Part shown: in pieces, positions 1,059 to 23,007 of the stretch | Numbering within the stretch: the first letter of the stretch is position 1 | Layout of the letters: each line of letters begins with the position of its first letter | From: an uncultured Hormoscilla sp. | Lineage (GTDB): Bacteria > Cyanobacteriota > Cyanobacteriia > Cyanobacteriales > Desertifilaceae | NCBI GenBank assembly: GCA_963921275.4 | Contig: OZ001293.3 | Span: forward strand, 2,592,001-2,656,000 | DNA: 64,000 bases | Direction: 5' to 3' | The notes under the pieces: generated by a model | What the model saw: the letters and a program-made list of their open reading frames with translations, nothing else | Told to the model about the DNA's origin: nothing | Database searches by the model: none | Position numbers and translations under genes: made by a program

Positions 1059-3024
1059 TCAAGCAAAGGCTGTATAAACTCTTCTTTCTCCAGTAAAAGG
1101 AAGTCTACCATGCCCCATGCGATAATTATCTAGAATTAGTATATCTCCCTCTTGCCAGTTAAATCGTTCTGCGTTTTGCCAATAACTTTTGACAATATGA
1201 TATACATCCCAAAATGCTAAATTAGCACGATCCTCAAAAGCTACATCCATATATCGATATTTGCGATAACCGGGAATTAGGGTGTGTCATCAATCAAATT
1301 GCTTGACAGAAGTAGATGGATACGGTATGGAGTCCTTATCCAGCAATAACAATCAAGAGGGCATGATATGAGACGCTATGGCTTGCGAGACGACCAGTGG
1401 GAACGGATCGAACACCTTTTACCTGGTAAAGAGGGTGACCCAGGCGCTACAGCCAAGAACAATAGATTATTCGTGTTCTGCCGTGTTATATCGATATCGT
1501 GCTGGCATTCCCTGGCGGGATTTACCGGAGTGTTTTGGGGATTTTCGGGTTGTTCATACCCGCCATACCCGTTGGTCTGAAAAGGGAGTTTGGAAGCAGG
1601 TATTCGATGTCTTGGCCTCAGACGCCGATAACGAATACGCCGCGATTGATGCCACCATCCTGCGTGCCCATCAACGAGCGTGCGGGTGCAAAAAAAAACA
1701 CCCTCAGATACGTGCGAAACCCAAGCCATAGGCCGTAGTAAAGGGGGACTATCGACAAAGATTCATGCCACTTGCGATTGCCCAAGGCAATCCCACAGGA
1801 TTTCATCTTACCCCTGGCCAAGCCCACGACGGGAAAGGCGCTGACGTGCTATTGGATAAAATCGGTGAGATTGGCGCGCTGCTTGCAGATAAAGCCTATG
1901 ATGCGGAACAACGTGTGCTCGAGCGCCTGAAAGAGGCGGATTGGATGGCTGTCATTCCTCCAAAAAGTAACCGCACAGAACACAGAGAAGACGATGAAGA
2001 AATGTACAAGTGGCGGCATCTAATTGAAAATCTATTCCAAAAACTCAAGCAATACAGGGCTCTGGCGACACGCTACGATAAAACGGCTCGCAATTTCTTG
2101 GGTGCCATCTACCTCGCGGCAGCTGTAATATGGCTTAATTGATGACACTCCCTAGTTTTTCCCGATAAATTTGCACAAATGTCAGTAAGAATAAGATAAA
2201 AAATACTAACAAACTCCTGAATTTCCTTTGATACTTAGCAACAAACCACGCCTCAATACAAATACCCCAGATGTGAAACACAGGGAGCCGTCCTGTCCAG
2301 ACAATTTCCTTGGCGATCGGATGAGAGTTAATTGTCGGCATCGGACAAGAAACAATTAATTCACCGTTAGTAAGCTACTCGATCTGTCGCCCGACATCAC
2401 GACATTTTGCCTCTATTAAATCCCGATCATCAGTATTGAATACATCTGGCCAAGATTTAGCATAACGAAACCAAGGCCACTTCCATAATCTCACGTCAAA
2501 TAATCTTTTCTGTGTACTTAAAAGTTTTGTGACCAAACGGCGGTGAAAACACTTCTGCTGTAACTGTTCCGGTAAATCTGATAAAACTGATTTCATTCAT
2601 ATTAATGACAGGAGTTTCACCATCGCTGGCAGCAACTTGAGGGCAAAAAAACAATATATAAGCAGGTTTATCTAATGGGGAGTAAGATAATTCTGTATGA
2701 CTCAGGAATTGGCACATAACTTGGTAATTCAGAAGCATTCCAGATATATTCAGTAACCTTTTGACGGGGTGCCCCACCTGGATATTGATTTTGCAGATTC
2801 GGGAAAATACTTAATCCCACTTGTTGAAATTGCTTGGGAGTTTTCACTTCATATCCTCGAATAGCGATCGCCCCATGATTGGTTATAGTCTCCTTGAGTT
2901 CGTGTTGATGATTGTTGAGATAATCAAGTAGGGACTGCAAATCTGTAGCATTTTGTTTAGCCGTTATTATGGGAAGGCTTTTTGTCAATTGTCGATCTTG
3001 TCGATCGTCTTGATTAGGCTTCAT
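1059..3024 (-). pseudogene. TauD/TfdA-family (SyrP-like) 2OG-Fe(II) dioxygenase, frameshifted and IS-interrupted
   Basis: Fragments HGAIAIRG, HTELSY..PAYILFFC..GETP and WQEGDILILDNYRMGHGRLPFTGERRV lie in different frames (ORFs 2668-3075, 2496-2777, 2375-2596, 1059-1250). An IS sits at 1280-2152. Confidence 0.8.
1280..2152 (+). mobile_element. IS5-family (IS427-group-like) insertion sequence, 873 bp, copy 1
   Basis: TIRs GGGTGTGTCATCAAT / ATTGATGACACTCCC flanked by TA on both sides. orfA has [17 protein letters not shown], orfB has ADKAYD..IENLFQKLKQYRALATRYDK, with an A9 run at the orfA/orfB junction. Confidence 0.92.
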
Positions 3025-5240
3025 TTTTGTTAACCTCCTTATTATCAACTCTTGTGGAAGTGAAAAGTTGAGCAATTAAATAAACTGCCATTCCCGCCGC
3101 CATACCGGGAAGCGTTTCGTTAACCCCATCGGACAGCTTCAATTCTATCCAGGTCAAAGCTGTACCGATGCCCACTAGCATCATGGCGATCGCCACGGGC
3201 GCACTTACGTTTTTCTGCCAAACCCGCAGGACCAATAACGGACCCAGACCAGATGCTAGGGCCGACCAGGAGAAAATTACCAACGCAAATATGTTGTCTG
3301 GAGCCAATATGGCGATCGCCACAACCAGTATTGTCACTAACAGAGTCCATAGCTTTGCCAGAGTATAAGAATTGACAGCGGCAGAAAAAATATCTCGACC
3401 CAGGGTAGCAGAACAAGAGAGAATCTGAGAGTCAGCAGTGAAAATGTGCGATGAGTTCTAGCCTAACGTAGTCAAACACGGAACGCTAGCCTAGGAAACT
3501 AGGAACTCTGATATTCATGGGGGTTCAATTCCTCTCCCCCAGGTACGGGGGTGACACCGGTCCTCAGTGCTGCGGAGCAACATCACCGTGGTGCCAAGCG
3601 AGGACTTAAATGTAGGATAGCTGGCAGCCTAAGCCGGTGACGCCGCTAGGAAAGATGGCCAAGGTTAGAGCAAGCGAACCCATGCAAGCCTCGTAAAGCT
3701 AAACCAGCGAAATAAGGCTTTATGCGCTGGCCCAAAAGGGGAAGTAGTTAGTATTGGTTATATTTTCTGGCCAATATCGTATTCAAAGAACTACCGGGGT
3801 ATAGTGGGGACCTAAAGTCATCGTGAAATGGTATCAGGGAACGAAGTAACCCCTCGTGTGCTGTCCATCGGGACAAGTCAGATGTGGAGCGAATGCCACG
3901 GGTGGGAAAGATGGCCCGAGAAGCTAATGCCTGGAGTAATGTCCACGGATAGGGATACGGATACGTATCCGCAGACGCGGGTCGGTGATAGTTGGAAACC
4001 TTCGGTAAAAGTAACCTTAAATACGCAGCGGTACTGAGTCCGGCGCTAGCTGGGCGACAGTTTGGATAAGTCCTCTGGACAAAGGGGTGAAGTAGCAGGA
4101 GGCAAGGGATAACAGGAGCAATCCTCAGTAAACCTACCCGTGACAAGGGCCAACTACCCAGTAGCCGTGTGCGGCTCCAGTCGCATGCACGGTTCCTCAA
4201 GGGAGGGTTGGGGAGCGATTCCCAGCGAGACCCCTAATAGTTCCCGCAAACAGTCCTGCCAACATCACTCCCACCAAGCCAACTGGTAATAATTCTAGTG
4301 CTAAATAGGGCAGGGTCAATTCCGGACCCCCTCCACTCATCAACTCTGGCATCAAGACTCTGCCTGTCAGTCCGATCGTCGTCGCCGTCAAGGAATTAAC
4401 CAGAAAGCAGATGCTTCTCACGTTGTTAGCCAAATCCATGTTATCTTCAGAATCGATCGCCATTGCCCGCACCATAATGTGAGGTTGACCGACTACGCCC
4501 AAACCGCTAACCAACCACCCGATCGCAAAAGGCAATACACCCCAGGCTAGATTTGGTGGATTCAAACTGACCAATGCCGGGTCAATAACGCCAAGTTTTC
4601 GACTCAATTCCATCACGCCACCGCAACTAGCAACCGCCACCACTGACAGCAGCAGTAAGGAACCAACCATCAAGATACCCTGGGCCGCATCGGTCCAGAT
4701 GGAGGCGCGGATACCCCCAGAAAAACAGTAGATGATAACGATGAAGGCTCCCAGTACGATACCAAAATAATAGTTCCAACCAAAGATCGCATTCAGGGCC
4801 TTGCTGCCAGCTACCAGTTGGGCGGCGGCATAAGCACCCAGAAACGCTATAGTAATTATCCCCGAGAGTGCGGCGATCGCCCGACCTGATTTTGCGGCCA
4901 GGAAAGAGGAGAAAGTCTCCGCATCCCTTTGGGCAGATATTTTTCTTAACCGCTTGCCCACCAACCACCAAGAGATATGCTGTCCCACCGTCGCGCTAAC
5001 AATACACCATATAGAAGCCAATACTAGTTTGTAGCTAAAACCGACCACACCTGCAAATAGAAAGCCACTCTGAGTGGTTGCCATCGCCGATAGCCTCGTC
5101 AGCCAGGGATTTACATTTCTGCTAGCTAGCAGGTAATCTGTAGTGGTCTTTTGCTTGCGCAACAGCGCCAATGTTCCCACCAATACAAATAATAGGAGAA
5201 AGGCGACGAAAGTAACCGCAATAGATGTTCTATCGTTCAT
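3014..5240 (-). pseudogene. Sodium:solute (PutP-like) symporter interrupted by an antisense group II intron
   Basis: Joining 5240-4239 to 3445-3014 gives 1434 nt in frame (..LFAGT|IFTADSQIL..), matching the paralog's LFAATISTADSQIL. The intron is on the opposite strand. Confidence 0.85.
3446..4238 (+). mobile_element. ORF-less group II intron, diverged sister type (793 nt)
   Basis: 5' end GTGCG. Domain V AGCCGTGTGCGGCTCCAGTCGCATGCACGGTTC. Domain VI ends ...GAGACCCCTAAT. EBS1 ATTTTC (3762-3767) pairs with the 5' flank GAAAAT. No RT ORF. Confidence 0.9.
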
Positions 5241-5346
5241 CGGGGATGTTTTATTTGGTTTTCATTGACGGACTTCGCTCACCTGTGATTATACGGTGAA
5301 GATAATTTTACCAAGCTAGCCAACAGGCAATTTATTTTCCATCTGT

Positions 5347-6283
5347 TTACACATTGATAGCCGACTTACTCGATAAAGCAAGATAAGCCCCGAGCAAAAT
5401 TACTACAAAACTCACCAAAGTAGAGCCGCCGATGGTTTCCGAGAAAATTGCCCAAGCTTCCAAGGAGCTAAGGACGGGAACCAGCAGACTGCATAAGGAG
5501 GTTAATCCTGAAGATAATCGCTTGAGGCTATAAGCAAAAAGTCCCAGACCTAGCACTTGGCAGATCAAGGCTAGACCCATTACCGAAACCCACCCACTTA
5601 GGGAATAGGGAAAAAGCATATCTTCGGTGAAGATAACAACGGGTAAAACCAACACCGAAGCGATCGCAGAAACCCAAGTTATAATAATTATATAGTTCTC
5701 TTTAGTTCGCAGTTTTTCTACCAACGTATAAAGCAAAAAACAATGCTGATAGTAATGCTGCTAGATCGCCTGTAATCTTGTCACTGGCGGATTCAAAATC
5801 GTTTACTACTAGGAGACCAGCGCCAGCTATTGCTATAACCATGCCGAGAATAAATCTCTTGTCAAAGCGCCTAACCACCCCCCTAAGATGACGAACGTCA
5901 AATAATGCATGAAGGTAGAGTTGGCAACGCTAGTTTTAATTAGGGACCATGCCCACAGTATGAGAGCTACAGATATAACAATTCCTGCTGCTAGCAATAG
6001 CCCCAGTGGCTCAATGCTGTAGGGCTGCGGTTTGATTGGTTGCTTGTCAAAAAGTCGCCCTCGAACGACCAATACTCCATTCCACAATCCCAAGGTGACA
6101 GTAGCCACCCAAAAGCGATTAAAGATGGTAGCATTGGGAACTAGTTCCCCTTCGCTTAAGCTGATAAAAATGGGGGCGAAAGATATGGCTATTACGCCGA
6201 CCCCTAATGCCGCGATCGCCCACATAGTTTCTGTATCGATTTGCTGTTGCACGTACTAATTTAATTCGTAGGGTTGCGAACAT
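5347..6283 (-). pseudogene. EamA/DMT-family transporter, frameshifted paralog of 9556-10506
   Basis: Fragments 5833-6252 and 5347-5736 align to the intact paralog (NATIFNRFW, WAWSL..TSVANST, LVPVLS.LEAWAIFSE). Confidence 0.85.
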
Positions 6284-6370
6284 TGATTATCTCCAGTGAC
6301 TGATACAGATCCCTTGACAATTGCTTTATTATCTTCAGAAGATTTGTCATCTCTGATAAAAATCTGCTTT

Positions 6371-8285
6371 TCACAGATTGGTATACTTAAACTTAGAGCC
6401 ACAAGCTACAGGAATCCGTCTCGCTGCCCCACGCCATAACTCCAATGCCACATCGGACAAATTTTGACCATCCGCCTGGAGCATCCGCGAGATCATGCTA
6501 ATATTGCCAAAAGACCAAAACAAGCCCGCCTCCAGCAGATACGGCTCGTTGGTTTCGGCATGCACTCTGAAGTCATACAGGGAGTAATCGCGACCGCCCA
6601 AAGCTATATGTGCCCGCTTGGCTGCATCAGAGATTTTCTCCCATAAAGAAGGCGTGACATTCCCCGGACAGACGGGTTTCACTGCTGGCTTGTCAGGTTG
6701 TTTCCTGGGCAGTCCGTCCCCTTGCAGGTCATACTTATCACGTACAGTTCTAATGGGATTGTCCTTGGTGACTAAATACTCGATCGTCGGCAGCACCCAT
6801 AACTTCCCCTCACGTTCGACTACCCCCACGCGCAGTTCCCGTCCGGGGATGTAATCTTCTACCAACAAGGTCTCGTCATGTTCAAACCCCACCCGCAATG
6901 CTTCAACTATTTGATCTTCTTCCCAAACCAAAGTCAAGCCCAAAGAATTATCTTCCGAGTTCGGCTTCACCATAAATGGGGGCTGCATGGTCACGGTATC
7001 CCCCTGGCGCACAACTTGGGCCTTGGCCACCGGGACACCAGATGCTGACACGACGCTTCTGGTTTGAGCTTTGTTAGTTGCCAGGGCAGTACAACTAGGT
7101 GGCGACCCCACTACTGGTAGCCCGAGGATGTCCTCGAAGAATCCACGGAAACTAATCATCCCTGGGACACAGAACATATGCGGCACTACTACATCCACCT
7201 CCGGTAGCCCCGCGATCGCCTCTTGGAGGGGCATCTTCTCTGATGGATGGGGTCGAGCCGGGAATCGCTTCCCGACCCTCCCTTGAGGAACCGGACTTGC
7301 GATTTTCACCGCATCCGGCTACTGGGTACTAGGCCCTTTTCATAGGTAGACTTAATAGGAATTACTTCCGTTAGCCCTTGCCGCCTGTCTTTTCTTCCCT
7401 TTCCTGGTTTAGCGAGTGGTTGTTCTGATAACCGTTAGTATCACCATTTTCAAGTCAGTTTTACCAGTTATCCATACCTTATCCTCCACTTGCGTTTCGG
7501 ATTAGTTCCGTGGCTTTTTAGGATTACTCATTCCAGCAGCTTCCTAGTATCACCGACCCACGTCAGCGCTGGCTACCCAGCATCATCTACATTACTGTAG
7601 ATGTTATCCCAGGAATTACCCCGGGCATTCGCTTCTTGGGCCATCCCTCCCCCCGTGGCTTGCGCTTAACATCTAACTTGTCCTGATGGACAGCACACGA
7701 GAGGTTACTTCGTTCCCTAACAACATTTCGCGATACCTTTAGGTCCACACTATACCCCGGGAGCTATTTGAGTACTATATTAGCCAGAGTCTAAAACTAA
7801 TACTAGCTACCATTTCCTTTTTAGGCCAGCGCATATAGCCTTATTTCGCTGGTTCCTTATAACGAGGCTTGCACATGTTTGCCTGCTCTAACCTTGGATA
7901 TCTTTCCTAGCGGCGTCACCGGCTTAGGCTGCCAGTTATCCTACATTTGAGTCCTCGCTTAGCACCACGATGATGTCGCTTCGTAGCACCGAGGACCGGT
8001 GTCACCCCCGTACCTGGGGGGAGGGGAATTTAACCCCCATGCGGTCAGAGTTCCCGGCTAATGAAACCGGGCTAGCGTTCCGTGTTTGACCACGTTAGGC
8101 TAGAACGAATCGCACAGACTGTCTAAGGATGCACCTAGCTGCCAAAGACCATCCGGGTGTACCACGGCGTAGTAGCTACTGACACCAATTGGTTGCACTA
8201 CTTCCCTTGCGTAGATTACCGACAGGTTGTAGTAGAAGTCGGATACGCGAGAACCTGCTAGGTGCAAAACTCGCAAGCAAGGCAT
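6371..8285 (-). CDS. mysD: D-Ala-D-Ala ligase-like MAA ligase, copy 1; exons 8285-8116 and 7244-6371, 347 aa if spliced
   Basis: Exon 1 MPCLRVLHLAGS..LDS joins exon 2 SEKMPLQEAI..VVPHMFCVPGM..KPNSEDNSLG..YSLYDFRV..EAGL. Total 1044 nt in frame. Lies in a mysABC context. Confidence 0.85.
7245..8115 (-). mobile_element. ORF-less group II intron, main family, copy 1 (871 nt), in mysD1
   Basis: 5' end GTGCGATTCGTTCTAG. Domain V AGCCGGATGCGGTGAAAATCGCAAGTCCGGTTC. Domain VI ends ...CTCGACCCCATCC. Confidence 0.93.
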
Positions 8286-8342
8286 TGTGTCTGATATCAT
8301 CACCAATTTTTCTGTTGTACTTGAGTTTGCTCACATATCATA

Positions 8343-8423
8343 TTAAGGGAAGATGTTTGTTTATCTTTGCTGAAAAGCATTGCCACTCCATCAACAATCA
8401 TATTAGCAGCCATGACAGGAAGC
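8343..8423 (-). pseudogene. Short relic of a sodium:solute symporter 3' end
   Basis: TTTGTTTATCTTTGCTGAAAA..ACAATCATA closely resembles 13772-13850, the end of the symporter that precedes mysD2. Confidence 0.6.
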
Positions 8424-8498
8424 AGAACCCACCTGCGGTGAAACCCTTGCCTGGCAATTATTTTTATCTGTACGCGACCAGAAAAATTTCACGCTACT

Positions 8499-9551: not shown

Positions 9552-9555
9552 ATGC

Positions 9556-10506: not shown

Positions 10507-10637
10507 TGATTATCTCCAGTAACTTATACAGAGCTTTTGCCTATTATCTTCTCTGGTGGCAGTAAAAAGTTGGGTAATTAAATCAACTACCATCACCAGC
10601 AGTAACCATCACGATCGCCTGCTTGGATCGATCAAAA

Positions 10638-11774: not shown

Positions 11775-11790
11775 ATTGAGAACTTATCAT

Positions 11791-13720: not shown

Positions 13721-13771
13721 TGTTTCTGATATCATCCCCAATCTACTGTTGTACTTAATTTTTCTCAAATG

Positions 13772-15193
13772 TTAGGAATATTTTTGTTTATCTTTGCTGA
13801 AAAACTGAGCAATTCCATAAACAATCATACCTGTAGTCATTCCCGGAAGCACTTCGTACAGTATACCAGACAAGTTTAGTCCTAATTTCCATGTCAAAGC
13901 TGCCCCTATGCCCGCCACCATCATGGCGATCACCACTGGTGCCGTTACAGGTTTTTGCCAAACCCGGACTAGCAATAGCGGACCGAGACCAGAAGCTAGG
14001 GCTGACCAAGCAAAAATTACCAATGCGAATACATTATCATCTCCTGCCAACGCCATACTCAAAATTATCATTGTTACCGTCAGGGTTCCCAGTTTTGCCC
14101 ACTTGTAAGACTGGGCAATTTGAGGAAACAAATCCTGGGTTAGAGCTGCCGAACTTGACAGGATCTGAGAGTCAGCCGTAGATATCGTCGCAGCAAACAG
14201 TCCCGCTAGCATCAATCCTACCAAGATCGCTGGCAACAATTCTAGGGATAAATAGGGCAGTGCTAACTCCGGATCCCCATTAGACATTAATTCTGGTAGC
14301 ATCACTCTCGCTGTTAGTCCTACACCTATTGCACAAAAAGATGCCATCAGACCGCAGATTATTTTGATGTTGCGAGCTTTAGCTATACTATCGGCAGAGT
14401 CGATCGCCATACCTCGCACCAGGATATGAGGTTGACCTACCACCCCAAACCCTGCTGCTATCCAACCGATGAAAAAAGGCAACAGTCCTAACTGAAGGTT
14501 TTGCGGACTTAAGGAAACCAGTGCCGGGTCTATCTCGCCCAGTTTTCTCCATATTTGGACTACGCCACCGCTGCCAGCAACTGCAACTACCAGCAGCAGC
14601 AGCAAGGAACCGATCATCACCACTGATTGCGCTGCATCCGTCCAGATGGAGGCGCGGATACCTCCAGAAAAACAATAGATGACCACAATGACCGCCCCTA
14701 CTATTATACCCAAGTTGTAGTTCCACCCGAACACCGCATTTAGTGCCTTGCTACCTGCCACCAGTTGTGCTGCCGCATAGGTTCCCATCAAGGTAATAAT
14801 AATTAAAGCTGAGACCTTTGTAATCGGGCGAAACCCCTTTGTTTCTTGACCGAGTAAGGATGAGACTGTCTCGGAAGCAGTTAACTCCGATATTTGCCTT
14901 AACCGTTTGAAAACCAACCACCAAGCAATATAATCTCCTATAGCCCAGCCGATTGTCAACCATAGGGCCGAAATTCCTGCCTGGTAAGCGAAGCCTACCT
15001 CCCCGATAAACAAAAAGCCGCTTTGACCTGATGCCTGAGCCGATAGGGCCGTCAGCCAGGGATTGACATTTCTGCTAGCCAGCAGGTAATCACTCGTCGT
15101 ATTTTGCTTGCGGGTCGCAGAATATATTCCTACCATAGTAAATAATAGCAGAAAGGCGATGAATGTCACTGCGATCCCAAATTTATTATCCAT
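13772..15193 (-). CDS. Sodium:solute (PutP-like) symporter
   Basis: 473 aa, many TM segments, SSS motifs DYLLASR, GGIRASIWTD, GQPHIL.R and AATISTADSQ. Confidence 0.9.
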   Translation of the reverse strand: MDNKFGIAVTFIAFLLLFTMVGIYSATRKQNTTSDYLLASRNVNPWLTALSAQASGQSGFLFIGEVGFAYQAGISALWLTIGWAIGDYIAWWLVFKRLRQISELTASETVSSLLGQETKGFRPITKVSALIIITLMGTYAAAQLVAGSKALNAVFGWNYNLGIIVGAVIVVIYCFSGGIRASIWTDAAQSVVMIGSLLLLLVVAVAGSGGVVQIWRKLGEIDPALVSLSPQNLQLGLLPFFIGWIAAGFGVVGQPHILVRGMAIDSADSIAKARNIKIICGLMASFCAIGVGLTARVMLPELMSNGDPELALPYLSLELLPAILVGLMLAGLFAATISTADSQILSSSAALTQDLFPQIAQSYKWAKLGTLTVTMIILSMALAGDDNVFALVIFAWSALASGLGPLLLVRVWQKPVTAPVVIAMMVAGIGAALTWKLGLNLSGILYEVLPGMTTGMIVYGIAQFFSKDKQKYS

Positions 15194-15279
15194 TGTCAGT
15201 TTGTAGGGTGGGCATTGCCCACCAAGTTAGATGGCACTGACTTAAGGTTGGTGGGCGGTGCCCACCAACCTTCTGCGCC

Positions 15280-16493
15280 CTAGTCTCCGCCCAATTCTAC
15301 TAGCTTACCTATATTAAAATCAATCTTCACCCAACCTTTCAATTTTCTCATATTATTCAGCAGGAGTAATGGTATTTGCCAGTGGTGGACCATCAAAAAC
15401 GGCAAGGGGTCATTCACCTGGAAGATCCCATCCGTTCCCTTGATTATCTTATTAAACCACCCCTTGAGTTGCCCCCAAGATCTAATTCCCGTCAGTCGCC
15501 AGAGTTCGTGATATGTCCAATAGGTAGGTTTACTCTCAGGAAGTGGCTCAATGGGCGGTTTCCGATCGTCCTTGCTATCCTGAATATATGCATCCGCGAC
15601 CCCAGGATGATTGTAAAACATGGTGATTGCCGTGTGGGTGCGCGGGTTACATTCTACTGGATAAACTTTCCCATCTTTCGTCTGAATAACATCTAAAGAA
15701 ATTTGTCCTGTCAGGTTTAATGCCTTGACAAACTGCTGCACCCATTGGAAAATATCCTGGTTATCCACTTGCTCGTAATTTACCTGAAAGGGAGAAGACC
15801 GCGAACAGCATGCAGTCTGACGATCCCCTTCCTGACCGTACTGTGGGTACAATATTCTTGTCCGCGAATAAATTCCTGCATGATCCAAGGTTGGGACTCG
15901 CTGATGGGCAATCCCTTGACAAAACTTGCCATTTCCTCTAGGCTACTCATGGGCAGTTTCGTCAGATCCAAGCGGTAAACTGAGTTATAGGCGATACTCT
16001 TAATAATGTACTGACTGCCATCGGCGGTAAAGTCAAAGTTCAGCACTTGTTCGGGGTCTGTAATCAAAAATGCTTTTGGCGCAGTTAAACCAAACTCCCT
16101 CGCCTTTTGACAAAATGTAAACTTGTTATCTAACATCTCGGTAATCTCAGCATCAAAGGTTAACGCCTCGCAGTGAGGTGATAACAATGATTTCGCGATC
16201 GAGTCGTAGTAACTGGCAACGGGACTGGATACGGGAATAAAGACATCAATCTTTTCCTGCTTGACAATATCCAATAATCCCTGACAATAGCTGTTCGGGT
16301 CAATTTCGGGTGCTGGCACGGTGAAAAATCCCTTGACCGCCCGAGAAAAGCGATGTCCTGATAACCAGTATTTATGAGTTTCTACCAGAAACACTGTATG
16401 TCCGGCTGCGTGAAAGCAACGGGCCAGTTGCAGCGCTTTTGTCATCTTACCACCCGTAATCAAGATATTTTTGGGATTTGCCGCAACCACCTT
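15280..16493 (-). pseudogene. mysC: ATP-grasp mycosporine-glycine ligase, N-terminally deleted and frameshifted
   Basis: Motifs NPKNILITGGKMTKALQLAR..ETHKYWLSGHRFSRAV..EYCTHSTV, ECNPRTH and KIDFNIGKLVELGGD. Frameshift near 15810. Confidence 0.9.
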
Positions 16494-17098
16494 TTTCTTA
16501 TCGGCATCGATAAACACCAAGTCAAAGGACTCCGAAGCATTTGCCAATTGGCGCAGGGTCTCTAAAGCCGGTGCTACCTTGACAGTAATTTTACTTCCGT
16601 GGGGGGACTCTTGGAAACAGTTTTGGCAAAGTTAGCCACATATTCATCCACCTCACAGGCAACCAGGAGTCCATCTTCTGGCAGGGCCTCTGCCATGGCC
16701 AGGGCCGAATATCCGGTGAACATGCCGATTTCCAAGATCCGTTTTGCCCCCGTCATGTGGACAAACATCTTCAGAGTTTGTCCCTCGACATGTCCCGAAA
16801 GCATCTCCTGTTCTAACTGTCGCACTAGCTCCCCATCTGAGAACCTTTTGCTCCAATCTTCTGAGGCCGTTTTGAGTGCCAATGCTGTCAAGGCGGGGGA
16901 CTCGGCAGTACTGCACTTATTCAGATAAGGTTCTATTCCTGCTGCCAGATCGTAGGCTTTTTGAACAGCAGCGGCCAGTTCTGCTGGCACCTTGGCGTCA
17001 GAGAGCATCTGCACTGCGCTGGCCAGATCTTCTACCAAGATACCCAAGGGGGTGACAGGTCTGGCTGTCTTTTCTTTCACAACCGTCGCGATCGTCAT
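16494..17098 (-). pseudogene. mysB: O-methyltransferase of 4-deoxygadusol synthesis, frameshifted and C-terminally deleted
   Basis: Motifs TARPVTPLGIL, LEQEMLSGHVEGQTLKMFVHMT and LEIGMFTGYSALAMAEALP. Frameshift near 16620; ends at FDLVFIDADKK. Confidence 0.9.
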
Positions 17099-17732
17099 GC
17101 ACTCTTCTCCCAAATTTGTTCAAAAATAGACATAAATCCTGAAATATTGAAACTACCTCTAGCTCTGACAGTCTTGACTCTCACGCTTCTTAACCCTGTT
17201 TAGAGCGGTTGGAACTCGTCTGCCCACCGGTTATAGATGACGATCGCCGGATAGAAACGGAACACGGAAGCTTTTCCCTTCTATAATTATTTCCTGGGAG
17301 TGTGGTCAAAAGTAGTTGGTTTAGTATATAATGGATATTTTCAGCGTCCAGTTGTCAAGAGGTTCTCATTAATGATATTTATTAATATTATTAAATTATT
17401 CCCAGTTATCCCTAGGCAAGATCAGTAAAAATACTCAGAAAAATATCTGGACATGGTCCCCAGGGATGTGATAGGGTTTGGCTGTTAAGCAATTGTCTAA
17501 TACCATTTTGTTAAACATCTGATAGACTTGACCGTAGCATAGATTAGAGACGGGAGCCTCCGAATAGCGCAGCGTGTTCCCAGGTTCTACCTGGGAACGA
17601 GAGAGTAGGGGTTTCTTCTCTATCAATTGTTTATGAAATTGGTATAACGTTTTTCATAGCTCTGGCGCGAGCGCGTTTTCAAGCGTGACAGCAGATTGTG
17701 ACTGAAATCTAAAGAGGAAATTTTCCGATCCG

Positions 17733-18731
17733 ATGGCAAAAGAAACATTCGACTTTGTTATTCCACTCTACCGGTTGCGTTGGAACACGCGAGCTGTTCT
17801 GGAAGGACTGACTCACCACTACAAGCCCCGGGCAATTCACATAATTGCCCCGGAAACAGAAGTGCGATCGCTCGATCCCAAGGTTAAGGAATGGCAAGTT
17901 GCTCCAGTCTATACCCACGAGGAGGAAGACTTTTTTCACAAGAGTGGTCTGACAAAGGACGCGATTTGCTCGGAACTGGATTTAGGCAAATCCCTTTATA
18001 CCTCTGGGTGGTTCTATCAGCAGCTATTAAAACTCGGTGCTTCTGAGGGCATTGATGACCTGAGTGAATGGTTCTTTGTCTGGGATAGTGACCTACTGCC
18101 AGTAGATACTTGGCCACTCATCCTCGAACATCAGCAAACTATAAAGCACGCATTTGCACTTCTTCAACACAATAAATGGGGTAATGCTCATATCGTGTCA
18201 AAGTGGGCTGAGTGGATTCGATCAGTGCTTGGGGTTGAGCCAGTTACAGACCAGGAAGGAACCTTGATTCCACATCACATGTGGTTTAAGCAGGAGTATC
18301 TGGCATCATTTAAGCAGCAAGTAAAAAACTACTTTCAATCAGACGATAGCTGGCTGCTGTTGATGATGCGCTCTGCCAATAAGTTTGAAACCTTTAGTGA
18401 ATATTGGTCCTACGTTTCCTGGGTGGCGGCGAAAGCTCCTGCTGACCTAGCCTTTCACCCCTACGAACAATACGGGGCTACCACCGAGCGATTTTTTGAT
18501 GACGGCACTGGTCTGTTTTCCACTACCCTTAAGAGCAAGCGATCGATAGAATCGGACTCAGAGTTCTTTTCTCCGACCTATGCAGAGATAGAATCGTTTA
18601 TTCAAGGAGAATACGAAGCAGATGCGCTGCCGTCATCTTTATCTTTTGAAAGTAGCCCACGACACCTTAAGAAGGACAAAAAGAACATGCATATTGAAGA
18701 GCTACGTTCTCGTTGGAACCCCCGCCAGTAG
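17733..18731 (+). CDS. DUF6492-like protein, putative GT-A-fold nucleotide-sugar transferase
   Basis: N-terminal strand FDFVIP, GWFYQQLLKL, DxD motif VWDSD and FSEYWSY. Family assigned from remembered motifs. Confidence 0.55.
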   Translation: MAKETFDFVIPLYRLRWNTRAVLEGLTHHYKPRAIHIIAPETEVRSLDPKVKEWQVAPVYTHEEEDFFHKSGLTKDAICSELDLGKSLYTSGWFYQQLLKLGASEGIDDLSEWFFVWDSDLLPVDTWPLILEHQQTIKHAFALLQHNKWGNAHIVSKWAEWIRSVLGVEPVTDQEGTLIPHHMWFKQEYLASFKQQVKNYFQSDDSWLLLMMRSANKFETFSEYWSYVSWVAAKAPADLAFHPYEQYGATTERFFDDGTGLFSTTLKSKRSIESDSEFFSPTYAEIESFIQGEYEADALPSSLSFESSPRHLKKDKKNMHIEELRSRWNPRQ

Positions 18732-18863
18732 GACGGGCGTCTCCTCTGTCCATCCCTAGGACGGGCGTCCCGCCTGTCCGGATGTGGTCAGTGGTCAGTG
18801 GCCAATGCAAGAATTTTGAATTGTTTAATAGGTGTTGTGTCAATTAGCGAGGAGGTTACTCAT

Positions 18864-19742
18864 ATGCCAGTAAAAAAACTACAGGCATTTGCCAAGTCTA
18901 TCTATCTGGAGAGGGTCTATCGTTCTATTATCAGAGAGCGGATAAAACAAATGCCGATAATTCAGGAAATGGATCGGATTAGGGAAAGTTCTCGATATCA
19001 AGACCCAAAAAGTTTAATTCCTTTTGGGTATAAGATATATTCGCAAACTGATGAAGACGGAATGATCGCAGAAATCTTCAGAAGGATTGGCTCAACAAAT
19101 AAAGTCTTTGTCGAATTTGGCATTGGGAATGGTTTGGAAAACAATACTATTTCTCTTCTATTTGATGATTGGCAAGGTTTATGGATTGAAGCCTCTTCAC
19201 GTTATGTAAAGGCAATCCGCAAGTATTTTGATCAAATCATAGAAAATGGGCAATTAAAAGTTGTGCAATCATTTATTACCAAGGATAATATCAATGACTT
19301 GATTTACGCCCAGATAAAAGATAAGGAAATCGACCTATTATCGGTTGATATTGATGGCAATGACTATCACGTTCTGAATGCAATAACCTGTATTAGACCA
19401 AGAGTAATCGCGATCGAATATAACGCCAAGTTTCGACCGCCAATTTTATATTGTATGGATTACGATGAATCATATACTTGGGAAAAAGATGATTGCGGTG
19501 GAGCTTCATTGAAGTTTCTGGAGGTAAATTTAGATAAAAAAGGTTATTGCCTTGTGGGTTGTAATATATCTGGTGTCAACGCATTTTTTGTGAGAAAAGA
19601 GCTAGTCGATGATAAATTTTTGGCTCCTTTTACTGCTGAAAATCATTATGAACCCCCAAGGTATTATTTTTCAGGATATTTCGCGGGCCATCGTTCTGCA
19701 TATAAAACCTTGGCAAAATCGCTAACCATGCGCTCCAGTTAA
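18864..19742 (+). CDS. FkbM/Methyltransf_21-like protein
   Basis: Motifs YSQTDEDG, FVEFGIGNGLENNT, DLLSVDIDGNDY, PRVIAIEYN and GVNAFFV. GAGGAGG RBS upstream. Confidence 0.6.
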   Translation: MPVKKLQAFAKSIYLERVYRSIIRERIKQMPIIQEMDRIRESSRYQDPKSLIPFGYKIYSQTDEDGMIAEIFRRIGSTNKVFVEFGIGNGLENNTISLLFDDWQGLWIEASSRYVKAIRKYFDQIIENGQLKVVQSFITKDNINDLIYAQIKDKEIDLLSVDIDGNDYHVLNAITCIRPRVIAIEYNAKFRPPILYCMDYDESYTWEKDDCGGASLKFLEVNLDKKGYCLVGCNISGVNAFFVRKELVDDKFLAPFTAENHYEPPRYYFSGYFAGHRSAYKTLAKSLTMRSS

Positions 19743-19859
19743 CTTCATTCGCTACCATTGAATACTGTAGGTTGGGTAGAGGGCCAGCGAAACCCAACAG
19801 GGCTTGCTGGTGTTGGGTTTCATGCCCAAACCCAACCTACAACTTAGCGATCGGTCTTT

Positions 19860-21224
19860 TTATTCCAGACCCAGATCGCTGAGGTACATTTCCACTCCTG
19901 CCCCACCATCGGGGAAGTTAGCACATAATGCCTTATGTTCGGATATAGCAGCTTCGAGCAATTCCTGCGGCACTTCTCGGGCATAGTCGCAGTTGCCAAT
20001 GCCGCCCCGAGGTAGGGGTGCCCACAGTCCGCCATCTCCCCGTTTGCGATTCATATTCTTCTGTCCGGAAATCATTAAATCAATGTCTTCCAGGATCGGA
20101 TGATAGACTGCCAAATCGAGGGTGCGAATCAGGGCAATGATCCGATCGCGTTCCGCAGCGGAGATCCAACCCATCATCGTGGCCAAAGTTGCCCCGAAGG
20201 CCATGCCGATGCTCACCGCGTGACCGTGCATCAGCCTCGCCGCGGGTTCATAACGGGGACTCCAAGTGTGACCGTAGGCGTGAGGCCGATCCTGATAGGT
20301 CTCGAACATGTTCGTCCCTTCGTGCTTCATATAGGAGAACAGTTCCCGGTAGATCACCTCATCGGCGATTTCCCCTAACTCTTCGTCTTCTTCAGTGGTA
20401 GCAAAGTGGGTTTCGATCAAGCGCTGACCGTATTTCTCCAGCAACTCAAAGAGAACTTTGTCATCTGTCACCGCCATCTTGATAATTTCGGCCATGCCAT
20501 TGCGGACGTGACCGGTGGGGAGGGTGCGGAATACACTCCGATCGACCAGAGTTAGCACCGGGGGATGATAAGCACCGATGCTGTTCTTGAATTGCTTGCC
20601 GTTGGTACAGGTGCGCGGTGACGGACCTGCATCAATCGCCGCGATCACCGTTGTCGGCACCATCACATAAGGAGTGCGGCGATGCTGTAAAGAACAGGCT
20701 AACCCCGCCACATCGGTGAGGACGCCACCGCCGATCACCAGCACTGGTTCGTTGCGAGACACGTCACAACCATCCTTGCCCAGGAATCCCAAAATACGGT
20801 GGACTGTTTCCGGAGTTTTGTCCGCTTCCCAGGCCCGGATCACCTGCATTTCCAGAGTAATTTCGTTGGTGTCAAAATAGCGACGCACCGACTCTCCGTA
20901 CAGCTCGTTCACGGTTTCGTCGATGACGGCAACACAGCGACCCCGACTATTATAGATTTCCGCCAGGGTGGGGTTTGACGGGTCAAATACCCCATCGACC
21001 AGCTTCACCTTGGCCGTCAGACTGTAGGTTGCAGAGACCTCGAACGATCGACCGTCCTTTCCTGGGAAGATCTGCCCTGAGCCAGTGTACCACTCTGAGG
21101 TACGATATATAGGGTCATGCTTTACCCCAATGTCCTTGTTTTCTGAGCGCTCGAACTGCTCTCTCAACTCTTCCTTGATCTTCTCTGTCAGTTCTGTTTG
21201 AGCGATTGCAGTTTGTAGACTCAT
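19860..21224 (-). CDS. mysA: Sedoheptulose-7-phosphate cyclase (demethyl-4-deoxygadusol synthase-like), divergent
   Basis: DHQS-superfamily motifs IGGGVLTDVAG, VPTT..AIDA, NGMAEIIK, AYGHTWSP and HGHAV. Lies upstream of mysB/C/D. Confidence 0.85.
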   Translation of the reverse strand: MSLQTAIAQTELTEKIKEELREQFERSENKDIGVKHDPIYRTSEWYTGSGQIFPGKDGRSFEVSATYSLTAKVKLVDGVFDPSNPTLAEIYNSRGRCVAVIDETVNELYGESVRRYFDTNEITLEMQVIRAWEADKTPETVHRILGFLGKDGCDVSRNEPVLVIGGGVLTDVAGLACSLQHRRTPYVMVPTTVIAAIDAGPSPRTCTNGKQFKNSIGAYHPPVLTLVDRSVFRTLPTGHVRNGMAEIIKMAVTDDKVLFELLEKYGQRLIETHFATTEEDEELGEIADEVIYRELFSYMKHEGTNMFETYQDRPHAYGHTWSPRYEPAARLMHGHAVSIGMAFGATLATMMGWISAAERDRIIALIRTLDLAVYHPILEDIDLMISGQKNMNRKRGDGGLWAPLPRGGIGNCDYAREVPQELLEAAISEHKALCANFPDGGAGVEMYLSDLGLE

Positions 21225-22998: not shown

Positions 22999-23007
22999 CG
23001 TAAACTA

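What the first reader, a model, noticed from the sequence alone, without database searches (positions are those of the whole stretch)
1059..21224. Expanded MAA (sunscreen) cluster with an unusual set of tailoring and transport genes
Seen, in minus-strand order: mysA, [two opposite-strand genes], mysB/C, Na+ symporter, mysD2, beta-hydroxyacid dehydrogenase-like, EamA, family-2 methyltransferase, mysD1, EamA, Na+ symporter, TauD-like dioxygenase; a convergent GNAT follows. Established: MysA and MysB make 4-deoxygadusol, MysC adds glycine, and MysD adds a second amino acid. Inference: two ligases, a reductase from the fold that includes imine reductases, a methyltransferase and a TauD-type (not PhyH/MysH-type) oxygenase suggest modified MAAs (methylated, reduced or decarboxylated) with dedicated uptake and export. 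I do not recognise this combination from described clusters.
Basis: partly seen in the sequence, partly recalled or inferred. Interest (0 to 1): 0.82.

Follow-up and report, generated by a model that had tools for sequence, protein, structure and literature searches.

The report
Decaying extended sunscreen (MAA) gene cluster
This is a real, extended mycosporine-like amino acid (sunscreen) gene cluster of a Hormoscilla-like cyanobacterium whose extra dehydrogenase, methyltransferase and transporter genes are conserved next to sunscreen genes in related marine cyanobacteria, but in this genome two core genes and several extras are broken.

Summary
The accessory genes also sit beside mys genes elsewhere. 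Among 29 loci fetched with MysD, tblastn found the Na+ symporter in 16, EamA in 13, the dehydrogenase in 10 (always next to mysD) and the family-2 methyltransferase in 7.

Three corrections apply:
- **The locus is decaying.** A 425-nt deletion fuses truncated mysB to truncated mysC, and each also has a 1-nt frameshift. The TauD-like gene (IS element, 2 frameshifts, a stop), the second symporter (antisense intron) and the second EamA (6 stops) are pseudogenes. Both mysD copies carry an identical 871-nt ORF-less group II intron.
- **Part of the set is already described.** The methyltransferase is 61% identical to the Nostoc sp. UHCC 0926 plasmid gene at the published MysF position. TauD/TfdA enzymes (MysI) and paired MysD enzymes are in print.
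- **The "reductase" is not imine-reductase-like.** It is a beta-hydroxyacid dehydrogenase type with its catalytic Lys kept. It forms a sharply bounded cyanobacterial subfamily with no assigned role.

The mysD-linked dehydrogenase and the in-cluster transporters are the new part. DUF6492, FkbM and GNAT are not conserved.

The parts
19860..21224 (-). mysA: DDGS-type sugar-phosphate cyclase, 454 aa, intact
   Evidence: Pfam DHQ_synthase and DHQS_C. The best PDB match is 5TPR, the Anabaena MysA (E 3.9e-97), ahead of the EEVS 4P53 (9.5e-69). In that alignment the MysA-specific Glu254 and Ala268 equivalents are kept, while the Thr347 equivalent is Lys (residue roles from PMC10666671, section MysA).
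18798..19742 (+). FkbM-like methyltransferase, probably not part of the pathway
   Evidence: Weak Pfam Methyltransf_21 hit. No tblastn hit in any of 29 related loci.
17733..18731 (+). DUF6492 protein, probably not part of the conserved pathway
   Evidence: Pfam DUF6492. Found only in L004 among 29 loci, there also between mysA and mysB. An atlas lead points to a nucleotide-diphospho-sugar-transferase-like protein.
16497..17113 (-). mysB remnant: Mg-dependent O-methyltransferase, frameshifted near 16620 and lacking about the last 76 codons
   Evidence: Pfam Methyltransf_3 covers only profile positions 21-95 of 204. There is a 1-nt deletion relative to L001 and L004. A deletion of 425-426 nt has its junction near 16497. 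Intact 280- and 285-codon frames exist in L001 and L004.
15280..16497 (-). mysC remnant: ATP-grasp ligase lacking about its first 47 codons (hydrophobic N-terminus and start), frameshifted near 15810
   Evidence: NCBIfam PRK06849 match. Two overlapping ORFs lie in different frames. There is a 1-nt deletion relative to L001, L004 and L018. Intact 460-, 467- and 452-codon frames exist in those loci.
13772..15193 (-). SSF-A: Na+/solute symporter of the PutP/PanF branch, 473 aa, intact
   Evidence: Pfam SSF. NCBIfam Na_Pro_sym scores 285.8 bits, below the 515.5 cut-off. A homologue lies beside mys genes in 16 of 29 loci.
13551..13768 (-). mysD2 exon 1
   Evidence: Translation matches MysD N-termini in the related loci. 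The exon ends ...GATAGTCT.
12680..13550 (-). ORF-less group II intron in mysD2, sense orientation, 871 nt
   Evidence: Rfam RF00029 scores 44.4 bits against a gathering score of 40. The 5' end is GTGCG. Intron-less Hormoscilla orthologues read GATAGTCT^ATCGGAG at this point. It is 100% identical to the mysD1 intron.
11791..12679 (-). mysD2 exon 2: D-Ala-D-Ala-ligase-like ATP-grasp
   Evidence: Pfam Dala_Dala_lig_C. It is 94% identical to L001. In the tree it groups with L001, L002, L005 and L017_9107 (95/95), all of which have the methyltransferase in the locus.
10638..11774 (-). mysD-linked beta-hydroxyacid-dehydrogenase-family enzyme with a C-terminal hydrophobic tail, 378 aa, intact
   Evidence: Pfam NAD_binding_2 and NAD_binding_11. 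It falls below every NCBIfam equivalog cut-off. The nearest PDB entry is HIBADH 5je8 (E 4.4e-35), and the catalytic Lys is aligned. The motifs and tail are conserved in orthologues. It lies next to mysD in 10 of 10 loci that have it. The subfamily comprises 89 clusters at 62% identity or more, then drops to 42% or less.
9556..10506 (-). EamA-A: DMT-superfamily transporter, 316 aa, intact
   Evidence: Pfam EamA x2. Weak NCBIfam matches to 2A78 and YddG. A homologue is present in 13 of 29 loci.
8499..9551 (-). MysF-type family-2 (COMT-like) methyltransferase, 350 aa, intact
   Evidence: Pfam Methyltransf_2 and Dimerisation. It is 61.4% identical over 97% of its length to Nostoc sp. UHCC 0926 pn1 757669-758685. 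That gene lies directly upstream of a TauD-family gene and an NRPS. A homologue is present in 7 of 29 loci.
8116..8306 (-). mysD1 exon 1
7245..8115 (-). ORF-less group II intron in mysD1, same site and same sequence as in mysD2
   Evidence: Rfam; repeats; 100% identity.
6371..7244 (-). mysD1 exon 2
   Evidence: Pfam Dala_Dala_lig_C. It is 88% identical in protein to mysD2 exon 2, and its nearest relatives are L003 and L004.
5347..6252 (-). EamA-B pseudogene
   Evidence: tblastn with EamA-A gives 59% identity in one frame, with six in-frame stops between about 5737 and 5895.
3050..5240 (-). SSF-B pseudogene, split between about residues 337 and 338
   Evidence: tblastn with SSF-A gives two pieces, 5240-4236 and 3454-3050, in different frames.
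3446..4235 (+). Degenerate group II intron copy, antisense to SSF-B
   Evidence: blastn shows 84% and 78% identity to the mysD intron on the + strand. D5/D6 lie at 4160-4225 (+), at 27.2 bits, below gathering, E 0.0053. GTGCG is on the + strand near 3447.
1062..3060 (-). TauD/TfdA-family dioxygenase pseudogene
   Evidence: tblastn with the intact 363-aa orthologue from L018 gives four pieces in three frames and one in-frame stop. Pfam TauD matches two pieces.
1269..2154 (+). 886-bp IS4/IS5-type element inserted in the TauD-like gene
   Evidence: Pfam DUF4096 and DDE_Tnp_1. A second copy lies at 22997-23882, 99.5% identical.
155..925 (+). GNAT acetyltransferase, a boundary gene of doubtful relevance
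   Evidence: Pfam Acetyltransf_7 and Acetyltransf_1. Found only in L003 among 29 loci.

Best explanation
The region is the local version of an extended mys (mycosporine-like amino acid) gene cluster shared by a set of mostly marine filamentous cyanobacteria. The nearest relatives are Hormoscilla genomes.

Ancestral pathway, in order:
1. MysA, MysB and MysC make mycosporine-glycine. This is established for the family.
2. One or more MysD ligases add a second amino acid. This is established for the family; the substrates here are unknown.
3. A TauD/TfdA-type dioxygenase removes a glycyl residue to give a palythine. A MysF-type methyltransferase then methylates it. Both steps are published predictions and have not been shown biochemically.
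4. A membrane-tail-anchored, probably NAD-dependent beta-hydroxyacid dehydrogenase is encoded directly beside mysD. My inference is that it acts on the beta-hydroxy-acid (Ser/Thr-derived) side chain that MysD installs. It could do so by oxidation followed by loss of CO2, as in 6-phosphogluconate dehydrogenase chemistry, leading towards amino-alcohol or enaminone MAAs.
5. An EamA exporter and a Na+-coupled SSF importer move MAAs or their amino-acid substrates. This is inferred from family and synteny only.

In this genome the cluster is being dismantled:
- mysB and mysC are fused by a 425-nt deletion, and both are also frameshifted.
- The dioxygenase, the second symporter and the second EamA are pseudogenes.
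- mysA, SSF-A, both mysD copies, the dehydrogenase, EamA-A and the methyltransferase still have open frames.
- Each mysD needs splicing of an ORF-less group II intron.

The locus as sequenced should therefore not make MAAs de novo.
For: Families:
- Pfam, NCBIfam and PDB searches.

Synteny in the 29 loci fetched with MysD2 exon 2, scored by tblastn:
- SSF in 16 loci, EamA in 13, dehydrogenase in 10, methyltransferase in 7.
- TauD-family gene in 5: three Hormoscilla-type and two MysI-type.
- The dehydrogenase lies 147 nt or less downstream of mysD in 9 of 10 loci and 407 nt upstream in 1 of 10. Eight of the 10 are not labelled Hormoscilla.
- Six of the 10 also hold mysA, mysB or mysC in the fetched stretch.

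Dehydrogenase:
- It is a bounded subfamily: 89 clusters at 62-99% identity, and the next hit is at 42%.
- Rossmann motif, YDIN, DAPFNDC, GT.CKLIHN and the C-terminal hydrophobic tail are conserved. The tail is present in 7 of 9 aligned sequences.

Methyltransferase:
- 61% identical to the Nostoc UHCC 0926 gene at the published MysF position (PMC10510106 passages).
- A C-A-T-TE NRPS lies directly upstream of it in L002, L003, L009 and L018.

Decay:
- Deletion. Intact mysB and mysC frames in L001 and L004, and an intact mysC frame in L018, whose fetched stretch does not reach mysB.
- 1-nt deletions at CC and TT dinucleotides, not in long homopolymers.
- TauD lesions and IS element. Antisense intron. 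EamA-B stops.
- Housekeeping genes elsewhere in the window are open: CbiC, DprA, PetA, PetC, GH57, PmbA/TldD. Lesions are therefore concentrated, not scattered.

Intron:
- The insertion is exact. Intron-less orthologues read CT^A at the site. All host frames agree with removal of 871 nt.
Against: - No activity of the dehydrogenase, methyltransferase, dioxygenase or transporters was or could be tested. Their substrates are inferred.
- The Trichodesmium-labelled loci (L007, L019) have the symporter but no dehydrogenase in the fetched stretch. This does not help the recalled link between that genus and asterina-330.
- A relative of the dehydrogenase-bearing Lyngbya strains was reported to make shinorine, porphyra-334 and trace palythine by a targeted assay that looked for only those three (PMC13280781, passages). 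No modified product is documented.
- The substrate-binding motif of characterised beta-hydroxyacid dehydrogenases (DAPVSGG, recalled) reads DAPFNDC here, so the substrate may be something quite different.
- The loci were chosen through MysD similarity, and 5 of the 29 are Hormoscilla. The counts are not an unbiased census.
- The two 1-nt frameshifts could be assembly errors.
- dN/dS against relatives is 0.19-0.62 for all genes, and the broken ones do not clearly stand out.
- Whether the ORF-less introns are spliced is unknown. The only maturase-type ORF in the window is itself split.
Confidence: 0.75

Rival explanations
1. The cluster is fully functional in the organism, and the apparent lesions are assembly or sequencing artefacts.
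For: The two frameshifts in mysB and mysC are single-base deletions. The assembly resolves many identical repeats, as a long-read assembly would, and such assemblies can carry indels. Other genes in the window also look split, for example the PhoD-like gene at 32746-36563.
Against: - A 425-426-nt deletion with clean flanking alignment to two relatives is not a typical base-calling error. Nor are an 886-bp IS insertion, a 790-nt antisense intron or an in-frame stop.
- The single-base deletions lie in 2-base runs, not long homopolymers.
- Lesions cluster in a few genes. About 8 kb of neighbouring mys genes and the housekeeping genes of the window are open.
- Other Hormoscilla loci carry different lesions in the same cluster: L001 in mysD exon 1 and EamA, L003 in the dehydrogenase and EamA, L018 in mysD and SSF-B (hit pattern).
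Confidence: 0.08
2. The accessory genes are unrelated neighbours and have no role in MAA metabolism.
For: This is probably true for DUF6492 (1 of 29 loci), FkbM (0 of 29) and GNAT (1 of 29). Nothing shows biochemically that the symporter, EamA or dehydrogenase touch MAAs.
Against: - The symporter, EamA, dehydrogenase and methyltransferase recur beside mys genes in loci labelled Lyngbya, Okeania, Dapis, Trichodesmium, Gomphosphaeria, Oscillatoria and others, despite rearranged gene orders.
- The dehydrogenase is always next to mysD (10 of 10).
- The dehydrogenase is a separate subfamily and not a housekeeping HIBADH.
Confidence: 0.07
3. The dehydrogenase is an imine reductase that reduces the C=N bond of imino-mycosporines.
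For: Imine reductases share the NAD_binding_2/NAD_binding_11 fold (recalled). MysD products contain an imine.
Against: - The catalytic Lys of beta-hydroxyacid dehydrogenases is kept and is invariant in 9 of 9 aligned orthologues. In imine reductases this position is Asp or Tyr (recalled).
- All 27 PDB sequences with E <= 1e-10 are hydroxyacid or aldehyde dehydrogenases or unnamed. None is named as an imine reductase.
- Reducing the imine would destroy the UV chromophore.
Confidence: 0.07
4. The surviving late genes (two mysD, dehydrogenase, methyltransferase, SSF-A, EamA-A) still work. They act on mycosporine-glycine or 4-deoxygadusol obtained from outside the cell, as a salvage or cross-feeding arrangement.
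For: Exactly the early genes mysB and mysC are broken, while a contiguous block from 6371 to 15193 keeps open frames, including an importer-type symporter. dN/dS of these genes against relatives is 0.2-0.6, not 1.
Against: mysA is also still open, which salvage would not need. The divergence times are short, so open frames may simply not have decayed yet. Both mysD copies depend on splicing of an intron with no intact maturase in view. There is no evidence on any external source.
Confidence: 0.08

Closest known systems
Canonical cyanobacterial mysABCD cluster (Anabaena variabilis / Nostoc punctiforme type; Balskus and Walsh 2010, as cited in PMC10666671)
   Same: It has the same four core families in the same order: DDGS-type MysA, Mg-dependent O-methyltransferase MysB, ATP-grasp MysC and D-Ala-D-Ala-ligase-like MysD.
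   Different: - mysB and mysC are inactivated here.
- MysA belongs to a divergent branch: 72-77% identical to the Dapis, Okeania and Gomphosphaeria loci, but only 39-45% to the Lyngbya and Nostocales loci.
- There are two mysD copies, each with a group II intron.
- A symporter, EamA, dehydrogenase and methyltransferase are interleaved.
mysF-mysI-mysE module of Nostoc sp. UHCC 0926 plasmid pn1 (PMC10510106)
   Same: The family-2 methyltransferase is 61% identical. A TauD/TfdA-family dioxygenase accompanies it in Hormoscilla relatives. A C-A-T-TE NRPS sits beside the methyltransferase in L002, L003, L009 and L018.
   Different: - The Hormoscilla-type dioxygenase is only 25-27% identical to MysI, whereas true MysI orthologues in L005 and L017 are 62-69%.
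- The window has no NRPS. The methyltransferase lies between EamA and a second mysD.
- The dioxygenase is a pseudogene here.
Paired MysD1/MysD2 ligases of Nostoc sp. UHCC 0302 (PMC11378024)
   Same: Two MysD paralogues occur in one organism. In the published case they prefer different amino acids (Thr versus Ser).
   Different: Here the paralogues are 88% identical, lie 5.4 kb apart in one cluster and share an identical intron. Their substrates are not known. I could not map the two published specificity residues (PMC11983340) because no reference numbering was available.
Beta-hydroxyacid dehydrogenases (HIBADH, tartronate semialdehyde reductase, sulfolactaldehyde reductase; PDB 5je8, 1vpd, 6sm7)
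   Same: Same two-domain fold families, the same Rossmann motif and the same catalytic Lys-x3-Asn segment.
   Different: - It scores far below every NCBIfam equivalog cut-off, for example HIBADH 132.7 against 291.6.
- It has a changed substrate-loop motif and an extra segment of about 75 residues ending in a hydrophobic tail.
- It is genetically tied to mysD.
Hormoscilla 'shinorine-like NRPS cluster' noted by Schorn et al. 2019 (PMC6520454)
   Same: It is probably the same cluster family. L003 (GUM202) and L018 (GM7CHS1pb) hold the NRPS plus mys genes.
   Different: That paper gives one sentence on it (passages read) and does not discuss the accessory genes or the decay. The window's version lacks the NRPS.

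Membership tests
mys (MAA) biosynthetic gene cluster | DDGS-type MysA (EEVS-like cyclase with the MysA-specific Glu254 and Ala268) | tested here: met
   5TPR is the best PDB hit (E 3.9e-97), and both residues align to Glu and Ala. The third signature residue, Thr347, is Lys (residue list from PMC10666671).
mys (MAA) biosynthetic gene cluster | Intact MysB O-methyltransferase | tested here: not met
   The gene has a frameshift and lacks about 76 C-terminal codons relative to L001 and L004. Pfam covers profile positions 21-95 of 204.
mys (MAA) biosynthetic gene cluster | Intact MysC ATP-grasp ligase | tested here: not met
   The gene lacks about its first 47 codons including the start, and has a 1-nt deletion near 15810.
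mys (MAA) biosynthetic gene cluster | MysD (D-Ala-D-Ala-ligase-like) or MysE for the second amino acid | tested here: inconclusive
   Two mysD genes have open exons, and the exon junction is in frame once 871 nt are removed. Splicing itself was not testable.
MysF methyltransferase (PMC10510106) | Close sequence relative of the methyltransferase encoded next to mysI and mysE in Nostoc sp. UHCC 0926 | tested here: met
   61.4% identity over 97% of the query to pn1 757669-758685. The next genes downstream are a TauD-family gene and an NRPS. That plasmid stretch carries no annotation in the collection, so the name is assigned from the paper's gene order.
MysF methyltransferase (PMC10510106) | N-methylation of a palythine-type MAA | not testable with these tools
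   This is only a prediction in the paper itself. The nearest solved structures are O-, N- and C-methyltransferases of small molecules.
MysI dioxygenase (TauD/TfdA type) | TauD/TfdA family membership | tested here: met
   Pfam TauD matches two pieces. The intact orthologue matches clavaminate-synthase-like and TauD/TfdA-like PDB chains.
MysI dioxygenase (TauD/TfdA type) | Orthology to Nostoc MysI | tested here: not met
   25-27% identity to the Nostoc gene and to its L005 and L017 orthologues, which are 62-69% identical among themselves.
MysI dioxygenase (TauD/TfdA type) | Intact gene | tested here: not met
   IS insertion, two frameshifts and one stop.
Beta-hydroxyacid dehydrogenase family (HIBADH-like) | N-terminal Rossmann domain plus all-helical NAD_binding_11 domain with the catalytic Lys | tested here: met
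   Pfam. The Lys aligns with that of 5je8 and is invariant in 9 of 9 orthologues.
Beta-hydroxyacid dehydrogenase family (HIBADH-like) | Membership of a characterised equivalog (HIBADH, tartronate semialdehyde reductase, sulfolactaldehyde reductase, L-threonate dehydrogenase) | tested here: not met
   All ten NCBIfam matches are far below their cut-offs.
Imine reductase | Asp or Tyr in place of the catalytic Lys (recalled); similarity to solved imine reductases | tested here: not met
   The Lys is kept. None of the 27 PDB sequences with E <= 1e-10 is named as an imine reductase.
Group II intron | Domain V/VI match, 5' GUGYG, exact insertion that leaves the host frame restorable | tested here: met
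   RF00029 scores 44.4 bits against 40. GTGCG at the 5' end. The empty site is seen in orthologues. The 3' end reads ...AUCC, not the usual AY. No reverse transcriptase ORF lies inside (871 nt).

The most novel reading that the evidence does not exclude
The mysD-coupled, membrane-tail-anchored beta-hydroxyacid dehydrogenase is the missing tailoring enzyme that converts Ser/Thr-bearing MAAs (shinorine, porphyra-334) into amino-alcohol or enaminone MAAs (asterina-330 or palythene type). It would oxidise the side-chain hydroxyl, after which CO2 is lost. The co-clustered EamA and SSF proteins would be the first dedicated MAA exporter and importer. In the sponge-symbiont-like lineage this machinery is being lost gene by gene.
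Probability: 0.2. Interest if true: 0.75.

Novelty: new variant of a known kind. Interest (0 to 1): 0.5.

Why it matters
A 2023 review of MAA biosynthesis states that the known four-step route does not explain amino-alcohol MAAs such as asterina-330 or enaminone MAAs such as palythene (PMC10666671, tailoring section). I also found no paper linking a transporter to mys genes. Searches combining mycosporine with symporter and mysC, or with EamA, gave nothing relevant. The phrase "hydroxyisobutyrate dehydrogenase" had 0 occurrences in the 15 of 19 papers listed.

A dehydrogenase subfamily that always sits beside mysD, together with two transporter families inside the cluster, gives concrete and cheap candidates to test in intact orthologous clusters, for example those of Lyngbya sp. 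PCC 8106 or L. aestuarii BL J.

The window's own copy is a poor choice for expression because its core genes are broken. It does add one evolutionary observation: Hormoscilla-type genomes carry different lesions in the same cluster, which suggests relaxed selection on sunscreen synthesis.

Tried and rejected
- **MysD specificity residues.** I read the passages on the two omega-loop residues (PMC11983340) and aligned the loop region of 27 MysD sequences. Without a numbered reference sequence I could not place the two residues, so I make no substrate prediction for MysD1 or MysD2.
- **dN/dS.** I hoped this would separate constrained from decaying genes. Values are 0.19-0.62 throughout. mysC is higher against L001 and L018 (0.50, 0.56) but not against L004 (0.23). 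I do not rely on it.
- **Canonical intron boundaries.** GTGCG...CAT (869 nt) would put every host gene out of frame. I rejected them in favour of 871 nt, which the empty sites in orthologues confirm.
- **Chen et al. 2021.** This genome-neighbourhood paper (PMC8905528) is not held. Its list of co-occurring genes could bear on the novelty claim and stayed unseen.
- **Supplements.** The tables of PMC10510106 and PMC12235509 were not opened.
- **Synteny of the wider dehydrogenase subfamily.** Synteny around the roughly 89 dehydrogenase-subfamily members outside my 29 loci is therefore unchecked.
- **Chemotype links.** Links between Lyngbya or Trichodesmium and asterina-330 are recalled only. merely confirmed that a Lyngbya sp. 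CU2555 MAA paper exists.

Full report
**1. What is there**

Coordinates and strands are given in the parts list.
- On the minus strand, from high to low coordinate: a DHQS-like cyclase, an Mg-type O-methyltransferase fragment, two overlapping ATP-grasp fragments, an SSF symporter, a D-Ala-D-Ala-ligase-like gene in two exons, and a NAD_binding_2/NAD_binding_11 dehydrogenase.
- They are followed, still on the minus strand, by an EamA transporter, a family-2 methyltransferase, a second ligase in two exons, EamA fragments, SSF fragments and TauD fragments.
- On the plus strand lie DUF6492 and a weak FkbM match, between the cyclase and the O-methyltransferase.
- A GNAT gene on the plus strand sits at the low-coordinate end.

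**2. Introns and an IS element**

Rfam finds group II intron domain V/VI at 7247-7323 and 12682-12758 on the minus strand. It finds five more identical hits and one different hit elsewhere in the window.
- blastn shows seven near-identical copies of one element, plus a diverged copy at 3445-4234.
- All seven copies read ...T|GTGCG...CATCC|A.... Only removal of 871 nt keeps the host frames open.
- Intron-less Hormoscilla orthologues read GATAGT CTA TCGGAG at exactly this place. The insertion is therefore exact, and splicing would restore ...LDSLSEK....
- None of the 27 mysD copies in the fetched loci that have both exon matches carries an insertion there. The gaps are 3-21 nt.
- The two mysD introns are 100% identical. 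The flanking exons are 91-96% identical, falling to 80% at the 3' end.
- The diverged copy in the second symporter lies on the plus strand. Domain V/VI is at 4160-4225 (+), 27.2 bits, below gathering, and GTGCG is on the plus strand. It is antisense to the gene and cannot be spliced out of its mRNA.
- An 886-bp IS4/IS5-type element (1269-2154) interrupts the TauD-like gene. A 99.5% identical copy lies at 22997-23882.

**3. Relatives and synteny**

One scan of genome contigs with MysD2 exon 2 gave 29 loci. The closest are titled Hormoscilla: L001 at 94%, L003, L004, L018 and L024. The source genome itself is not in that collection.

tblastn of the window's proteins against the loci gave the following counts out of 29:

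| Gene | Loci with a match |
|---|---|
| MysC | 20 |
| MysB | 17 |
| SSF | 16 |
| MysA | 14 |
| EamA | 13 |
| Dehydrogenase | 10 |
| Methyltransferase | 7 |
| TauD family | 5 |
| GNAT | 1 |
| DUF6492 | 1 |
| FkbM | 0 |

Typical gene orders are:
- mysA-B-C-EamA-SSF-mysD-dehydrogenase: L011 (Lyngbya aestuarii BL J), L013 (Lyngbya sp. PCC 8106) and L010.
- A-B-C-SSF-EamA-dehydrogenase-mysD: L012 (Okeania).
- A-B-C-SSF-mysD-dehydrogenase-EamA-methyltransferase-mysD': L001. This is the window's order.

The dehydrogenase is next to mysD in all 10 loci that have it: 9 within 147 nt downstream and 1 at 407 nt upstream. A C-A-T-TE NRPS of 1305-1388 residues lies directly upstream of the methyltransferase in L002, L003, L009 and L018. 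The window and L001 have none.

The loci were selected through MysD similarity, and several are short contigs. These are counts in a biased sample, not frequencies.

**4. Decay in this genome**

- **mysB and mysC.** DNA alignment of 15200-17250 with L001 and L004 shows that the window lacks 425-426 nt. The junction is near 16497. In L001 and L004 that interval encodes the last 76 or so residues of MysB, the spacer and the first 47 or so residues of MysC. In the window the two remnants are fused. The window also lacks one C of a CC pair in mysB and one T of a TT pair in mysC.
- **TauD-like gene.** It aligns to the intact 363-residue L018 orthologue in four pieces in three frames, with one stop and the IS element.
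- **EamA-B.** It has six in-frame stops.
- **SSF-B.** It is split by the antisense intron.
- **Contrast with the rest of the window.** CbiC, a corrin methylase, DprA, PmbA/TldD, PetC, PetA and a GH57 enzyme are open. Other accessory genes are split: a PhoD-like phosphatase and the intron-encoded reverse transcriptase/HNH protein. Concentration of lesions in a few genes, and their kinds, argue for real pseudogenes and against random assembly error.
- **Other Hormoscilla loci.** They show different split matches in the same cluster: L001 in mysD exon 1 and EamA, L003 in the dehydrogenase and EamA, L018 in mysD and SSF-B.
- **dN/dS.** Values against relatives are 0.19-0.62 and do not separate broken from open genes cleanly.

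**5. What the accessory genes are**

*Methyltransferase.* tblastn against plasmids gives Nostoc sp. UHCC 0926 pn1 as by far the best hit: 61.4% identity against 33% or less for the rest. Downstream of that gene lie a TauD-family gene and an NRPS. This is the published mysF-mysI-mysE arrangement. In that work MysF is predicted to methylate palythine and MysI (TauD/TfdA) to make palythine (PMC10510106, passages).

*TauD-like gene.* The Hormoscilla-type protein is only 25-27% identical to that MysI. L005 and L017 carry true orthologues at 62-69%. TauD/TfdA genes in actinobacterial MAA clusters are also reported (PMC12235509, passages).

*Dehydrogenase.*
- The nearest solved structures are HIBADH (5je8), 2-hydroxymethylglutarate dehydrogenase, sulfolactaldehyde reductase and tartronate semialdehyde reductase, and the catalytic Lys is aligned.
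- All NCBIfam equivalogs are far below cut-off.
- Nine orthologues conserve GCGNIG.RQAANF, YDIN, DAPFNDC and GT.CKLIHNAVNA. Seven of the nine have a C-terminal hydrophobic tail.
- In the large protein collection, 89 clusters are 62-99% identical, and the next is 42%. Named members come from Hormoscilla, Moorea/Moorena, Okeania, Coleofasciculus, Lyngbya, Dapis, Symploca, Scytonema, Rivularia and Cyanothece, plus one Vitrella entry.

*MysA.* It matches the Anabaena MysA structure better than EEVS and keeps two of three MysA-specific residues (PMC10666671).

*Transporters.* SSF-A is nearest to PutP and PanF, below cut-off. EamA-A weakly matches amino-acid/carboxylate exporters.

**6. How it most likely works**

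Shown for the family in the literature:
- MysA, MysB and MysC give mycosporine-glycine.
- MysD adds a second amino acid.

Published prediction:
- A TauD-type enzyme removes a glycyl group to give palythine, and MysF methylates it.

My inference:
- The dehydrogenase is genetically coupled to mysD and belongs to a family that oxidises beta-hydroxy acids. It most likely acts on the Ser/Thr side chain of MysD products.
- Oxidation would give a beta-carbonyl acid that loses CO2 readily. This is the chemistry of the related 6-phosphogluconate dehydrogenase (established knowledge). It would lead towards amino-alcohol or enaminone MAAs, whose enzymes are unknown (PMC10666671).
- EamA would export, and SSF would import MAAs or substrates.

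None of these inferred steps was testable here. In this window the pathway is blocked at mysB and mysC.

**7. Novelty**

- The core cluster, MysF, TauD-type enzymes and paired MysD enzymes are in print.
- A shinorine-like NRPS cluster in Hormoscilla was mentioned in one sentence (PMC6520454).
- I found no paper that connects a HIBADH-like dehydrogenase, an SSF symporter or an EamA transporter with mys genes. Chen et al. 2021 could not be read, and supplements were not opened.
- I therefore class the finding as a new variant of a known kind, of moderate interest. Its value lies in the conserved dehydrogenase and transporters, not in this damaged copy.

Noticed in passing
window 7245-8115(-), 12680-13550(-), 21904-22774(+), 28318-29188(-), 46282-47152(+), 54897-55767(-), 62312-63183(-): Seven near-identical copies (99.5-100%) of one 871-nt ORF-less group II intron lie within 64 kb. 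Each is flanked by T on the 5' side and A on the 3' side. One sits in a QueG-like gene and one near the end of a large repeat protein. The 3' end reads ...AUCC and not the usual AY.
   Followed up: partly
window about 53155-54873(-): A longer group II intron has a different domain V (RF04357/RF00029 at 53155-53232). Its reverse transcriptase/maturase/HNH reading frame is split into three ORFs. Its 5' GTGCG lies about 25 nt downstream of the ORF-less copy at 54897-55767, so two introns sit almost back to back.
   Followed up: no
window 1269-2154 and 22997-23882: Two 99.5% identical copies of an 886-bp IS4/IS5-type element (DUF4096 and DDE ORFs). They bracket the mys region.
   Followed up: partly
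window 29291-31708(-), repeats 29535-31036: An 806-codon ORF without any Pfam match contains three tandem repeats of 528-534 nt that are 93-99% identical. An intron copy sits just downstream, near a C-terminal ...LTADNFVFV segment.
   Followed up: no
window 32746-36563(+): A choice-of-anchor-I / RTX / PhoD-like phosphatase gene is split into three overlapping ORFs. It is probably another pseudogene.
   Followed up: no
window 38200-40160(+): An N6/N4 DNA methylase is followed by a NotI-like restriction endonuclease ORF, a likely type II restriction-modification pair.
   Followed up: no
L002:5307-9221, L003:3974-8137, L009:140-4246, L018:4223-8236: A single-module C-A-T-TE NRPS (MysE-like) lies directly upstream of the MysF-type methyltransferase in four related loci. 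It is absent from the window and from L001.
   Followed up: partly
table, row P0083: One member of the mysD-linked dehydrogenase subfamily (62% identity, 405 aa) carries the source name Vitrella brassicaformis, a eukaryotic alga. Whether this reflects gene transfer or contamination was not examined.
   Followed up: no
window 8499-21224 versus L001: Synonymous divergence from L001 is mosaic along the cluster: dehydrogenase 0.007, SSF-A 0.043, mysA 0.10, mysB 0.22. This suggests recombination between lineages or a composite MAG.
   Followed up: no
window 10638-10870 (C-terminal about 75 codons of the dehydrogenase); L001/L004/L018 mysC 5' ends: The dehydrogenase ends in a conserved hydrophobic segment. 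MysC of the relatives begins with one, and that segment is deleted in the window. Both hint that the pathway works at the membrane, next to the transporters.
   Followed up: partly
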